A stretch of DNA of 64,000 bases from a virus (Duplodnaviria; Heunggongvirae; Uroviricota; Caudoviricetes). Below, in pieces: positions 4,160 through 5,186 of this stretch. Position 1 is the stretch's first letter, and every line of letters starts with the position of its first letter. The stretch is from IMG/VR virus record IMGVR_UViG_3300035208_001055, positions 56,494 to 120,493 of that record. One strand, given 5' to 3'. The position numbers and the translations under genes are program-made. The notes under the pieces are model-generated. The model did no database searches and had not been told where the DNA came from. It saw nothing but the letters and a program-made list of their open reading frames with translations.

Positions 4160-4293
4160 GGGAAAGTTCTCCGTGGGAAAGGTTAGGCTAAGTTGGCCCA
4201 AAATTACACTCGCAATAAAAGCATCTGGGCAAGGTGTGCGAATGGGTATTGCAAGTATGAAATTGATAACCCATTTGCCTCGGCCCGGCGCTT

Positions 4294-4602
4294 TTACGCA
4301 CTTGTCTCCTCGTCTGTTTCTTTGTCTGAGAGGCGTGGCAACACGCCCACGTCCTCACCGGTGACAACAATCGTCACCAATTCATCCGACCCAGCAAAGC
4401 GTCCGGTAGGACGAATTAGGATCGAATAACCACTGTTGATGACGCGCCCGACAAATATCGGCGCATCCCATAGTCGAAAGGACGCACTGAACGTCTCACC
4501 ATTCGATAGGCACTTGTGGCACAGGTCCACGGTCTCGGTGTTGGCGTCTAGGACGACATCCGTAAGCATTCCTCGATCATGGCAATAGGTTACGTCCATC
4601 AT
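4294..4602 (-). CDS. Hypothetical small protein (CxxC...CxxC)
   Basis: 102-aa ORF between the Y-RNA-like array and rsr; contains CHDRG...CHKC. Confidence 0.25.
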   Translation of the reverse strand: MMDVTYCHDRGMLTDVVLDANTETVDLCHKCLSNGETFSASFRLWDAPIFVGRVINSGYSILIRPTGRFAGSDELVTIVVTGEDVGVLPRLSDKETDEETSA

Positions 4603-4713
4603 TGTTCTCCGTGGCCTTCGATTATATCACTCAGTTGTGGGGAGTCGAGCAAGGTCGTATTGCTGGGGTTTCGTGATAGTGGTAGATAACCCAACAAAAT
4701 TCGGCTCGACCAG

Positions 4714-4832
4714 TGTGTGGGGTAGGACTTGAACCTACTCTCGGCGGTTGCCGACATCATAGTCGGAAACCTTCCGAACCCCGTGGTGTTTCACGGCGGC
4801 GGCGGCGCGTCTTCCGGTTCCGCCACCCACAC
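4714..4832 (-). ncRNA. tRNA-like structured RNA (candidate Y RNA / YrlA-like tRNA-mimic module)
   Basis: Minus strand: perfect 7-bp acceptor pairing GUGUGGG/CCCACAC, a D-arm-like GCG-GAACCGGAAGA-CGC, a canonical T-arm GUAGG-UUCAAGU-CCUAC, and discriminator A. About 119 nt, with two internal hairpins where the anticodon arm would be. Too long for a tRNA; no CCA. Confidence 0.4.
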
Positions 4833-5035
4833 ATACGATGAGGCAAGGTTGTGTCGATGGGTATTACTTTAACCAGATAACCCATGACTTCGGCCTCATG
4901 TTTTCTCATGTTCTCTCATTGTACTCACCGGGCAAGGGATGTCGAACGGAGGGTCTTCCAAATAGATAACCGTTCAACGTCGGCCCGTGTGTTCTCTCTT
5001 GGTTCTCTCGTGGTTTCTCTTGTTTCGTTTCAAGG

Positions 5036-5171
5036 CACGCCGATAGGACTCGAACCTACAACCTCAAGTTCCTATGATAACCCAAATCCTTCGACCCGAT
5101 GTGCTTTACAAGGGGTAAGTTTTTGGCTTGGGTGATGCTACTCGCGCTCTAGCCAATTGAGCTACGGCGTA
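5036..5171 (-). ncRNA. tRNA-like structured RNA with embedded Y-RNA-like motif (candidate YrlA-like Y RNA)
   Basis: Minus strand: acceptor UACGCCG/CGGCGUG, UA, canonical D-arm GCUC-AAUUGGCUA-GAGC and T-arm GUAGG-UUCGAGU-CCUAU. About 86 nt replaces the anticodon/variable region and includes GGGUCGAAGGAUUUGGGUUAUCAUAGGAACU. Confidence 0.4.
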
Positions 5172-5186
5172 CACGTTCTCCTAATG

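What the first reader, a model, noticed from the sequence alone, without database searches (positions are those of the whole stretch)
4205..5175. Phage-borne Ro60 (rsr) gene preceded by an array of Y-RNA-like elements
The rsr orthologue (TROVE + vWA) lies directly downstream, on the same strand, of about 1 kb of non-coding sequence. That sequence holds two tRNA-mimic RNAs and five copies of a motif resembling the Ro-binding 5' region of Y RNAs. From established knowledge, bacterial Rsr is almost always encoded next to its Y RNA partners, and the YrlA class of Y RNAs carries a tRNA-like domain. Finding two tRNA-like modules plus five Y-motif copies here suggests an unusually expanded Y RNA set in a phage. 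Such a set could modulate RNA decay or repair during infection.
Basis: partly seen in the sequence, partly recalled or inferred. Interest (0 to 1): 0.85.

Follow-up and report, generated by a model that had tools for sequence, protein, structure and literature searches.

The report
Phage Ro60 gene with Y-RNA array
Just upstream of its Ro60 (rsr) gene, this tailed phage carries a real cluster of five Ro60-binding "Y RNA" modules; one is built into an ordinary tRNA shape, a layout that is common next to rsr in phages and bacteria but that I could not find described in the literature I could search.

Summary
On the minus strand, upstream of a TROVE+vWA rsr gene (4159-2513), lie four ~70-nt stem-bulge-stem hairpins (M1-M4). 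A fifth copy of the motif GNCGA...GGUUAUC sits inside a 138-nt tRNA-shaped RNA (A, 5172-5035). There is also a second tRNA-like element without the motif (B, 4832-4714).

The region is not all non-coding. ORF 4602-4294 is a real ORFan gene, because all its variant differences are synonymous.

Rfam Y_RNA and YrlA models give no hit. Models built here find the hairpin next to rsr, always on its strand, in 47 of 57 viral loci and in many bacterial loci, with strong covariation.

Element A is not a canonical YrlA. It has normal tRNA connectivity (open acceptor stem, D arm before T arm), and its anticodon loop is replaced by a closed Ro-binding stem. About 60 further copies flank rsr in Myxococcota, Planctomycetota, Gemmatimonadota and others.

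Arrays of 4-8 modules occur elsewhere, so five is large but not unique. Hairpins abut tRNA or tRNA-like 3' ends, which suggests release by tRNA-processing enzymes.

Verdict: a genuine member of a known kind, with an apparently undescribed topological variant. Rsr binding, processing and function are inferred.

The parts
2513..4159 (-). rsr (Ro60 orthologue), 548 aa, ATG at 4159 preceded by GGAG
   Evidence: Pfam vWA_Ro60 1.6e-66 and TROVE 5.3e-42. PDB Ro60/Rsr matches at 1e-108 to 8e-121. Called as a 548-aa gene on the identical contig L058.
4221..4292 (-). M1: hairpin Y-RNA module (CGGGC[C]GA ... GGGUUAUC ... CCUUGCCC). Its basal stem can extend to 4297-4215 and is followed by UUUUAUU. It lies 62 nt upstream of the rsr start codon.
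   Evidence: R1 65.0 bits. Fold -27.5 kcal/mol, z -3.8. RF01656 30.2 bits. No differences in variants L059 and L060.
4294..4602 (-). ORF102: protein-coding ORFan lying between M2 and M1
   Evidence: All four nucleotide differences in L059 and L060 are synonymous. The ribosome-binding-site context CCACGGAGAAC is shared with rsr (family D11). No Pfam, PHROG or homologue hits other than itself. The closest relative L001 has an unrelated 121-aa ORF in the same position.
4621..4648 (-). Sigma-70-like promoter match TCGACT-16-TG-n-TATAAT, overlapping the 3' end of M2 and upstream of ORF102
   Evidence: Consensus scan. The number of such sites in the region equals the chance expectation, so this is weak evidence.
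4642..4713 (-). M2: hairpin Y-RNA module that starts immediately after the 3' end of tRNA-like B
   Evidence: R1 67.4 bits. Fold z -3.0. Its lower stem GAGC/GCUC is a compensatory variant of GGGC/GCCC.
4714..4832 (-). tRNA-like B: 7-bp acceptor stem, T arm GUAGG-UUCAAGU-CCUAC, and two extra hairpins where the anticodon and variable arms would be. It has no Ro motif and no anticodon loop.
   Evidence: Rfam tRNA 32.4 bits with a 52-nt insert. Fold -60.2 kcal/mol, z -4.6. R2 gives only 30.7 bits. ARAGORN is negative. The acceptor pair 4827:4720 follows a compensatory series G-C, G-U, A-U across the variants.
4835..4902 (-). M3: hairpin Y-RNA module that ends 2 nt before the 5' end of tRNA-like B
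   Evidence: R1 70.3 bits. Fold z -2.9.
4926..4992 (-). M4: hairpin Y-RNA module
   Evidence: R1 60.9 bits. RF01656 31.8 bits. Fold z -3.0. One difference in the variants, at an unpaired position.
4993..5034 (-). Purine-rich AGAGAAC-repeat spacer between A and M4
   Evidence: Direct-repeat family D2. A 21-nt indel polymorphism in L059 and L060.
5035..5172 (-). A: tRNA-shaped Y RNA.
- Acceptor stem 5172-5165 pairs with 5042-5035.
- D arm 5162-5146.
- Short anticodon stem 5144-5141 pairs with 5068-5065.
- The anticodon loop is replaced by a closed Ro-binding stem: CUU 5119-5117, ACCC 5116-5113, loop 5112-5098, GGGU 5097-5094, bulged C 5093, GA 5092-5091.
- Upper stem CCCAA 5132-5128 pairs with UUGGG (5085-5081 by complementarity; these five coordinates are read off by hand).
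- UUAUC 5080-5076.
- T arm 5059-5043.
   Evidence: R2 96.7 bits. The structure is supported on a MAFFT alignment of 12 homologues (92.4% paired, 21 of 31 pairs changed on both sides) and on 76 homologues aligned to the model (96% paired, 27 of 30 pairs). No differences in L059 and L060 although both flanks vary.
5187..5420 (-). ORF77: coding gene ending 14 nt upstream of A (context; A is probably co-transcribed with it)
   Evidence: 24 nucleotide differences in the variants give only 3 conservative amino-acid changes.

Best explanation
The stretch 5172-4221 (minus strand) encodes an array of non-coding partner RNAs (Y RNAs) for the phage Rsr/Ro60 ring encoded immediately downstream.

Four units (M1-M4) are minimal ~70-nt Y RNAs. 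Each has a basal helix with a bulged C (N-GGC[C]GA pairing with UUGCC-N), an upper helix, and an almost invariant UUAUC at the start of the apical loop. Both strands of the metazoan-type Ro-binding helix are kept.

The fifth unit (A) joins the same Ro-binding helix to a tRNA body with ordinary tRNA connectivity. It is therefore the un-permuted counterpart of YrlA.

Inferred mechanism:
1. The array is transcribed with the flanking genes.
2. RNase P and the tRNA 3'-end enzymes cut at the two tRNA-shaped elements. This matures A and frees the abutting hairpins (M3 ends 2 nt before B; M2 starts directly after B).
3. The RNAs bind the outer face of Rsr through the bulged helix.
4. By analogy with Deinococcus and Thermus phage phiLo, they gate the ring or tether it to a host effector such as PNPase, or to tRNA-recognising factors through A. 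This would redirect structured-RNA decay or quality control, or counter a host defence, during infection.

Shown here: the sequence motif, the folds, covariation, and same-strand linkage to rsr across distant phages and bacteria. Inferred: expression, processing, Rsr binding and biological role.
For: - Five motif copies on one strand, far above chance.
- Compensatory differences among the four paralogous hairpins, and stable folds.
- Model R1 finds 87 more copies in the 57 viral rsr loci, all on the rsr strand. 92% of cells are paired, and 304 cells changed on both sides against 95 in shuffles and 24-72 in slid controls.
- The bulged C (77 of 79), the following G (78 of 79) and UUA-C (75-78 of 78) are nearly invariant.
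- R1 also finds 53 copies in bacterial rsr loci.
- The structure of A is supported on a structure-blind alignment and on 76 sequences. A has no substitutions between variants whose flanks differ.
- Hairpins start 0-3 nt after tRNA or tRNA-shaped 3' ends in many loci: L061, L075, L091, L098 and L109, and after tRNA-Ala and tRNA-His in Sorangium. The window shows the same layout at B followed by M2.
- The closest relative L001 has the same order: tRNA-shaped Y RNA, tRNA-like element, hairpin, small ORF, hairpin, rsr.
- Published precedent: YrlA and YrlB lie upstream of rsr, are processed from one precursor and are cut by RNase P in M. smegmatis. Phage phiLo Ro60 binds two upstream Yrl RNAs and host PNPase.
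Against: - There are no expression, processing or binding data for this phage.
- Rfam Y_RNA and YrlA give no hit in the window, and the RF01656 hits are below the gathering score.
- R1 and R2 were built from these sequences or their relatives. Alignments A2 and A5 are fitted to those models, which inflates the pairing counts. A3 is a MAFFT alignment and is free of this bias.
- Conservation of M1-M3 between the variants says little, because their flanks are also unchanged.
- B has no Ro motif, so its role is a guess.
- M1 sits in the rsr leader and could act in cis.
Confidence: 0.8

Rival explanations
1. The hairpins are cis-acting elements of the rsr operon mRNA rather than stable trans-acting RNAs. 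They could be Rsr autoregulatory binding sites in the leader, attenuators or terminators, or mRNA-stabilising structures.
For: - In most loci a module sits 20-60 nt upstream of the rsr start codon. M1 ends at 4221 and the ATG is at 4159; L001, L005, L048 and L056 show the same spacing.
- The extended stem of M1 is followed by UUUUAUU, which looks like a terminator.
- A promoter-like site upstream of ORF102 would place M1 inside an ORF102-rsr transcript.
Against: - Arrays of 4-8 units, units downstream of rsr (L008, L013, L054), and units fused to tRNA 3' ends inside bacterial tRNA operons do not fit a leader-only role.
- The module keeps the exact helix that Ro60 binds in free Y RNAs.
- M. smegmatis YrlA and YrlB, in the same position, are processed into stable Rsr-bound RNAs.
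- The terminator scan did not call M1.
Confidence: 0.12
2. A and B are decaying or intron-containing tRNA genes, and the hairpins are unrelated repeated palindromes (REP- or MITE-like) that happen to lie near rsr.
For: - The Rfam tRNA model scores B at 32.4 bits, and scores homologues of A at 43-54 bits, each with a large insert.
- Real tRNA genes occur in the window (14013-14995) and next to rsr in many loci.
Against: - The insert in A is not random. It carries the conserved Ro-binding helix and UUAUC, with covariation in 76 homologues.
- No anticodon loop can be restored, and ARAGORN is negative.
- The hairpin motif occurs nowhere else in the 64-kb window. In 47 of 57 viral loci it is tied to rsr and to its strand, which is not how mobile repeats behave.
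- B keeps a compensatory change in its acceptor stem.
Confidence: 0.04

Closest known systems
YrlA (Y RNA-like A; Rfam RF02553; Chen et al. 2014, PMC4201824; Wang et al. 2018, bioRxiv 10.1101/312249)
   Same: - Encoded within 4 kb of rsr on the same strand.
- Carries the motif GNCGAA(N)G followed by YUAY.
- Joins a Ro-binding stem to a tRNA-like body with D and T arms.
- Reported in phages.
   Different: - YrlA is a circularly permuted tRNA: T arm, then a closed acceptor hairpin, then D arm, with the Ro stem formed by the RNA's own 5' and 3' ends.
- Element A has the reverse connectivity: an open 8-bp acceptor stem at the ends, D arm before T arm, and a Ro stem closed by a loop at the anticodon position.
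- Rfam YrlA does not hit A or its bacterial homologues.
- A canonical YrlA-type unit does occur in relatives: L022 3311-3438 (full-length YrlA model match at 40 bits, below the gathering score of 69; the topology was read from the sequence) and Gordonia phage Cashline.
Metazoan Y RNAs and nematode stem-bulge RNAs (Rfam RF00019, RF01656)
   Same: - M1-M4 keep both strands of the Ro-binding helix: G-C pairs, a bulged C, then G-U and A-U.
- They keep GGGUUAUC after the upper stem.
- From memory, human Y4 begins GGCUGGUCCGAUGGUAGUGGGUUAUCAG, which is very close to M1 (CGGGCCGAGGCAAAUGGGUUAUCAA).
   Different: - They are bacterial or phage transcripts, not Pol III products, and are much shorter (~70 nt).
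- Scores are below the Rfam gathering scores: 21.8-31.8 bits against 38 for RF01656, and no RF00019 hit in the window.
D. radiodurans Yrn1/Yrn2; Salmonella and M. smegmatis YrlB; Thermus phage phiLo Yrl1/Yrl2
   Same: - Several Rsr-bound RNAs are encoded beside rsr.
- Some lack a full tRNA-like module.
- In the Deinococcus RNAs both strands of the Ro helix are kept.
- phiLo has two Yrl RNAs upstream of a phage Ro60 gene, and they bind Ro60 and host PNPase.
   Different: - Here there are five Ro-binding modules plus one extra tRNA-like element.
- The window's Rsr is far closer to metazoan and Deinococcus Ro60 (about 1e-110) than to phiLo Ro60 (4.6e-8).
- In Yrn1 the Ro stem takes the acceptor position. 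In A it takes the anticodon position.
tRNA-linked small-RNA precursors cut by RNase P and RNase Z (for example MALAT1-mascRNA and gammaherpesvirus tRNA-miRNA units; from established knowledge)
   Same: A tRNA-shaped element directly abuts another small RNA, so tRNA-processing enzymes would define the neighbour's ends (M3|B|M2).
   Different: Those are eukaryotic or viral Pol II or Pol III systems. Processing is not shown here.

Membership tests
Y RNA in the functional sense (a Ro60/Rsr-bound ncRNA) | Conserved bulged helix recognised by Ro60 (GGUCCGA-type 5' strand pairing with a UUGAC-type 3' strand) | tested here: met
   M1-M4 and A all carry N-GG(C/U)[C]GA paired to UUG(C/A)CC-N. Covariation in 79 distinct homologues is strong, and the bulged C is present in 77 of 79.
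Y RNA in the functional sense (a Ro60/Rsr-bound ncRNA) | Physical association with Ro60/Rsr | not testable with these tools
   Requires RIP or EMSA.
Y RNA in the functional sense (a Ro60/Rsr-bound ncRNA) | In bacteria and phages, encoded next to rsr on the same strand | tested here: met
   The modules lie 62-1013 nt upstream of rsr on the minus strand. The same holds in 47 of 57 viral loci and in many of the 80 bacterial loci.
Rfam Y_RNA (RF00019) | Covariance-model score at or above the gathering score (38 bits) | tested here: not met
   No hit in 4100-5900 at E<=10. A homologous module in L001 reaches 27.9 bits.
YrlA (RF02553) | GNCGAA(N0-1)G motif followed by YUAY | tested here: met
   A has GUCGAAGG ... 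UUAUC and M3 has GCCGAAG ... UUAUC. M1 (GCCGAGG), M4 (GCCGACG) and M2 (GCCGAAUU) are near variants.
YrlA (RF02553) | Circularly permuted tRNA-like domain: T arm, closed acceptor-like hairpin, D arm, with the Ro stem formed by the 5' and 3' ends | tested here: not met
   A has the D arm (5162-5146) before the T arm (5059-5043), an open acceptor stem in which 8 of 8 pairs covary, and a closed Ro stem. M1-M4 have no tRNA-like domain.
YrlA (RF02553) | Covariance-model score at or above the gathering score (69 bits) | tested here: not met
   No hit in the window at E<=10. As a control, relatives that look like canonical YrlA also stay below threshold at 36-42 bits, so the model is insensitive for phage sequences.
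Un-permuted tRNA-shaped Y RNA (class defined here, model R2) | 7-8 bp open acceptor stem, D arm, 3-5 bp anticodon stem, closed Ro-binding stem followed by UUAUC, variable loop and T arm, about 120-140 nt, adjacent to rsr | tested here: met
   A scores 96.7 bits. 75 full-size matches of at least 57 bits lie on the rsr strand in viral and bacterial loci (a 76th row is a 75-nt tRNA on the opposite strand). 96% of cells are paired. B fails at 30.7 bits, below genuine tRNAs at about 50 bits.
tRNA (RF00005) | Cloverleaf with a 7-nt anticodon loop; detected by tRNA finders | tested here: not met
   ARAGORN finds only the four tRNAs at 14013-14995. B reaches 32.4 bits only by skipping a 52-nt insert. 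A has no anticodon loop.
Nematode sbRNA (RF01656) | Covariance-model score at or above the gathering score (38 bits) | tested here: not met
   M1-M4 score 30.2, 23.1, 21.8 and 31.8 bits respectively. This is a resemblance through the shared Y-RNA core only.

The most novel reading that the evidence does not exclude
Element A represents a widespread Y-RNA subclass that has not been recognised: a tRNA with native connectivity whose anticodon loop is replaced by a Ro60-binding stem.

[quoted passage not shown] It would then couple Rsr to tRNA-recognising machinery. It would also act, together with B, as punctuation that releases the minimal hairpin Y RNAs from a polycistronic precursor.

The co-occurrence of permuted and un-permuted forms, and the tandem YrlA units of phage Cashline that can be read in either register, would explain how YrlA arose from tRNA by duplication.
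Probability: 0.4. Interest if true: 0.72.

Novelty: new variant of a known kind. Interest (0 to 1): 0.6.

Why it matters
Ro60 and Y RNAs are conserved from bacteria to humans, yet their mechanism is understood in only a few systems.

This locus and its relatives add several points:
- Phage and bacterial rsr genes commonly come with multi-copy arrays of minimal Y RNAs that look like the metazoan Y-RNA core.
- A tRNA-shaped Y RNA exists with un-permuted topology. This bears directly on the published idea that YrlA derives from tRNA or from dimeric tRNA.
- The arrays are wired into tRNA processing, because hairpins are fused to tRNA 3' ends.

The work also supplies covariance models that find these RNAs where Rfam does not. 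It points to cultivable systems for experiments: Sorangium, Minicystis, and Gordonia and Mycobacterium phages. It offers candidates for how phage Ro60 proteins, one of which counters the Ppl defence in phage Bas63, are programmed.

Tried and rejected
- Rfam at gathering threshold over the whole window found only the four real tRNAs.
- Rfam at E<=10 over 4100-5900 gave no Y_RNA or YrlA hit.
- blastn of the array against GenBank phages gave no match.
- ORF102 had no hit in Pfam, PHROGs, tblastn against phages or the 5.8-billion-protein search, apart from itself. I had first suspected a spurious ORF, but the synonymous-only variation shows it is coding.
- I considered that B might be a diverged member of the tRNA-shaped Y class. 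I rejected this: R2 gives 30.7 bits and there is no GNCGA...UUAUC motif.
- I considered that the R2 hit in Gordonia phage Cashline was another un-permuted unit. I rejected this too. It is the alternative register across two tandem canonical YrlAs: the acceptor pairing is poor, the closed UUCG acceptor hairpin is present, and Rfam YrlA scores 42 bits there.
- The 14-nt copy of the M1 5' strand inside ORF77 (5263-5250) is not conserved in the variants, so I dismissed it.
- The weak R1 and R2 hits at 34039-34102 and 24975-25056 lie inside ORFs, and I took them as chance.
- The supplementary tables of Chen 2014 and the two Wolin-lab reviews were not available. I therefore cannot rule out a prior description of the un-permuted form there. 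Full-text searches for it found nothing.
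Full report
**What is in the window**

The window is a tailed-phage genome. It encodes a large terminase, portal, tape measure, DNA polymerase, helicase and primase. On the minus strand, ORF 4159-2513 is a full-length Ro60/Rsr orthologue. Pfam gives vWA_Ro60 at 1.6e-66 and TROVE at 5.3e-42. Its best solved relatives are an RO60 entry (9nen), Xenopus Ro60 and Deinococcus Rsr, at E-values of 1e-108 to 8e-121. 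It is much further from the Thermus phage phiLo Ro60 (4.6e-8).

Reading the minus strand from 5172 down to 4221 gives this order:
- A, a 138-nt tRNA-shaped RNA (5172-5035)
- a purine-repeat spacer
- hairpin M4 (4992-4926)
- hairpin M3 (4902-4835)
- tRNA-like B (4832-4714)
- hairpin M2 (4713-4642)
- a 102-codon ORF (4602-4294)
- hairpin M1 (4292-4221)
- rsr, 62 nt further on

**Checking the observation**

The motif G-N-CGA-N(6-9)-GGTTATC occurs exactly five times, all on the minus strand between 5095 and 4265. The stricter form CCGA-N(6-9)-GGTTATC gives 4 matches against 0.05 expected from shuffles.

M1-M4 each fold into a stem-bulge-stem hairpin, with energies 2.9-3.8 standard deviations below shuffles. 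The four copies differ by compensatory changes in both helices; for example GGGC/GCCC, GAGC/GCUC and GAGGC/GCCUC.

The fifth motif copy is not a free unit. It lies inside A.

The two tRNA-like elements are real. B scores 32.4 bits with Rfam tRNA once a 52-nt insert is skipped, and it folds at -60.2 kcal/mol (z -4.6). ARAGORN calls neither A nor B.

Rfam at gathering thresholds finds only the four true tRNAs at 14013-14995. At E<=10 there is no Y_RNA or YrlA hit. M1-M4 give only sub-threshold matches (21.8-31.8 bits, gathering score 38) to RF01656. From my own knowledge, that nematode stem-bulge RNA family is regarded as the nematode counterpart of Y RNAs.

**The region is not all non-coding**

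Three contigs from other samples carry the same locus. One is identical. Two (L059, L060) are about 95% identical over the array.
- In ORF 4602-4294, all four differences are third-position and synonymous.
- In the upstream ORF77 (5420-5187), 24 nucleotide differences give only three conservative amino-acid changes.

Both are therefore coding. ORF102 has no homologue other than itself. It shares the ribosome-binding context CCACGGAGAAC with rsr.

In the same comparison:
- A has no change in 138 nt, although the 13 nt before it carry five differences and the spacer after it carries a 21-nt indel.
- M4 has one change, at an unpaired position.
- B shows the acceptor pair 4827:4720 as G-C, G-U and A-U in the three variants, together with GCC-repeat indels and a T-loop A/G change.
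- M1-M3 are unchanged, but so are their flanks, so that comparison is uninformative for them.

**The hairpins belong to a large rsr-linked family**

A covariance model (R1) built from M1-M4 finds no other convincing copy in the 64-kb window. In 57 viral contigs that encode Rsr relatives at 34-59% identity, R1 finds 87 further matches at E<=1. Every one is on the rsr strand, and nearly all lie within 1 kb upstream or just downstream of rsr. 47 of the 57 loci have at least one.

On the resulting alignment, 92% of cells pair. 304 cells changed on both sides, against 95 in shuffles and 24-72 when partners are slid by 1-3 columns. This alignment is fitted to the model, which favours pairing.

The bulged C (77 of 79), the following G (78 of 79) and U-U-A-(U/C)-C (75-78 of 78) are almost invariant.

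R1 also finds 53 copies in 80 bacterial rsr loci.

Both strands of the Ro-binding helix are kept. Chen et al. describe this for metazoan and Deinococcus Y RNAs, but not for Salmonella or M. smegmatis YrlA.

**A is a tRNA-shaped Y RNA with un-permuted topology**

Published YrlA RNAs are circularly permuted tRNAs. The Ro-binding stem is formed by the 5' and 3' ends and leads into an anticodon-like stem. It is followed by the T arm, a closed acceptor-like hairpin and the D arm. One relative, L022 3311-3438, has that layout when read from the sequence, and it gives a full-length YrlA model match at 40 bits, below the gathering score of 69.

A has the opposite connectivity:
- an open 8-bp acceptor stem (5172-5165 with 5042-5035)
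- U-A, then the D arm GCUC-AAUUGGCUA-GAGC
- a 4-bp anticodon stem (CGAG with CUUG)
- a closed arm in place of the anticodon loop: CCCAA...CUU-ACCC-[15-nt loop]-GGGU-[C]-GA-AGG...UUGGG-UUAUC
- a 5-nt variable loop
- the T arm GUAGG-UUCGAGU-CCUAU

Eleven similar elements of 116-136 nt lie next to rsr in other viral loci. On a structure-blind MAFFT alignment of the 12 sequences, a hand-drawn structure gives 92.4% paired cells. 21 of 31 pairs changed on both sides, including all 8 acceptor pairs. No shuffle out of 500 reached this, and the slid controls give 33-51% pairing.

A second model (R2) scores A at 96.7 bits, real tRNAs at about 50 bits and B at 30.7 bits.

In the bacterial loci, R2 finds about 60 more copies at 57-103 bits and 119-145 nt. 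All are on the rsr strand, with up to four per locus. The loci come from Sorangium, Minicystis, Kofleriaceae, Isosphaeraceae, Candidatus Brocadia, Gemmatimonadota and other lineages. Pooling viral and bacterial hits gives 76 aligned rows, one of them a 75-nt true tRNA on the opposite strand. 96% of cells pair, and 27 of 30 pairs changed on both sides (this alignment is model-fitted).

Rfam YrlA does not detect these elements. Rfam tRNA reports them as about 125-nt 'tRNAs' at 44-54 bits.

Full-text searches found no description of this topology.

**A possible link between the two topologies**

In Gordonia phage Cashline, the unannotated gap upstream of the Ro-like gene holds two tandem canonical YrlA units with identical 5' strands. 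Rfam YrlA scores one at 42 bits. R2 reads the alternative register, from the D arm of unit 1 to the T arm of unit 2, at 55 bits. Tandem duplication therefore gives a simple route from one topology to the other. This is inference.

**Array size in context**

The window has five Ro-binding modules plus B.
- Among viral relatives, L022 has 7 model-R1 matches (two over 110 nt, possibly YrlA-type) plus a canonical YrlA-type match. L056 has four hairpins plus two tRNA-shaped units. L008 has four hairpins. L002 and L005 have about four modules each.
- Among bacteria, L106 has four tRNA-shaped units and L075 has two of each kind.

The window is at the upper end of this range but is not exceptional.

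Published cases report one to three: YrlA and YrlB, Yrn1 and Yrn2, phiLo Yrl1 and Yrl2, and three abundant ncRNAs upstream of an Rsr-like gene in Listeria phage CKA15.

**How it probably works**

The junctions are tight. M3 ends 2 nt before the acceptor stem of B. M2 starts at the base after B's discriminator position. A starts 14 nt after the ORF77 stop codon.

The same 0-3-nt abutment of a hairpin to the 3' end of a tRNA-shaped Y RNA or a genuine tRNA recurs elsewhere. It is seen in L061, L075, L091, L098 and L109. In Sorangium and Minicystis, rsr sits inside a same-strand tRNA operon, and hairpins follow tRNA-Ala(CGC) and tRNA-His(GTG) directly. The closest relative, L001, has the same order as the window.

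I infer that the array is made as a polycistronic transcript and cut by RNase P and the tRNA 3'-end enzymes. M. smegmatis YrlA and YrlB come from one precursor, and YrlA is an RNase P substrate that receives CCA.

The released RNAs would bind Rsr through the bulged helix. By analogy with Deinococcus RYPER and phiLo, they would gate the ring or tether it to PNPase or, through A, to tRNA-recognising factors.

A defence-related role is possible. The Ro60-like gp130 of phage Bas63 counters the Ppl defence system. None of these functional steps is shown here.

A sigma-70-like promoter match at 4648-4621 hints that ORF102, M1 and rsr may also be transcribed separately. Such matches are no more frequent here than chance, so this is weak evidence.

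**Rival readings**

- *A purely cis-regulatory role for the hairpins.* This is most plausible for M1, which lies in the rsr leader and is followed by a U-run. It is not excluded for that unit. It does not explain arrays, downstream copies or tRNA-fused copies.
- *Decayed or intron-bearing tRNAs plus unrelated repeats.* This is contradicted by the conserved, covarying Ro-binding insert, by the strict linkage to rsr and its strand, and by the absence of the motif elsewhere in the window.

**Verdict**

Four corrections apply:
1. Part of the region is a protein-coding gene.
2. The tRNA-shaped unit is not a YrlA. It is an un-permuted counterpart.
3. B has no Ro motif.
4. The copy number is large but not unique.

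Phage Ro60 with Y RNAs is established biology. The apparently new elements are the un-permuted tRNA-shaped class, the metazoan-like minimal hairpins in arrays, and their coupling to tRNA processing signals.

Noticed in passing
window 5250-5263 (-), inside ORF77: A 14-nt string, AGCGCCGGGCCGAG, is identical to the 5' strand of M1 (4292-4279). Two of its bases differ in variants L059 and L060 at third codon positions. It is therefore probably a relic or chance match, not a sixth module.
   Followed up: partly
window 4993-5034 (-): The spacer between A and M4 is built of AGAGAAC-like purine repeats and shows a 21-nt indel polymorphism between near-identical contigs. It could be a flexible linker or a processing region.
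   Followed up: partly
window 5836-5842 (-), inside the NT5C-like ORF 5749-6423: A sixth GGTTATC (GGUCGGGUUAUCC) sits in the loop of a 7-bp inverted repeat, ACGTGGA/TCCACGT, within coding sequence. It has no CGA-spacer motif and is probably chance.
   Followed up: no
window 1061-2167 (-) and 2164-2500 (-): An ATP-dependent ligase (PHROG 114, DNA_ligase_OB_2) and small ORFs follow rsr directly on the same strand. Bacterial rsr is often linked to RNA-repair ligases, so the substrate of this ligase may deserve a look.
   Followed up: no
window 5675-5748 (-): The intergenic region upstream of ORF82 is rich in inverted repeats (CCTTGGAAA.../...TTTCCAAGG) around a TTGACG hexamer. It is a candidate promoter or operator for the operon that includes the Y-RNA array.
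   Followed up: no
L141 (Gordonia phage Cashline, MW534378) 1086-1480: The unannotated 640-nt gap upstream of the Ro-like gene holds two tandem canonical YrlA units with identical 5' strands. The pair can be read in either the permuted or the un-permuted register.
   Followed up: yes
L074, L078, L079, L080, L084, L088, L095, L111, L113 (Sorangium and Minicystis genomes): rsr sits inside a long same-strand tRNA gene array. Hairpin Y modules begin 0-1 nt after the 3' ends of tRNA-Ala(CGC) and tRNA-His(GTG), forming tRNA-Y RNA dimers.
   Followed up: partly
window 14013-14995 (-): Four genuine phage tRNA genes (Met, Pro, Thr, Ile) lie about 9 kb upstream on the same strand as the array. An ORF call (13992-14906) overlaps them and is probably spurious.
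   Followed up: no
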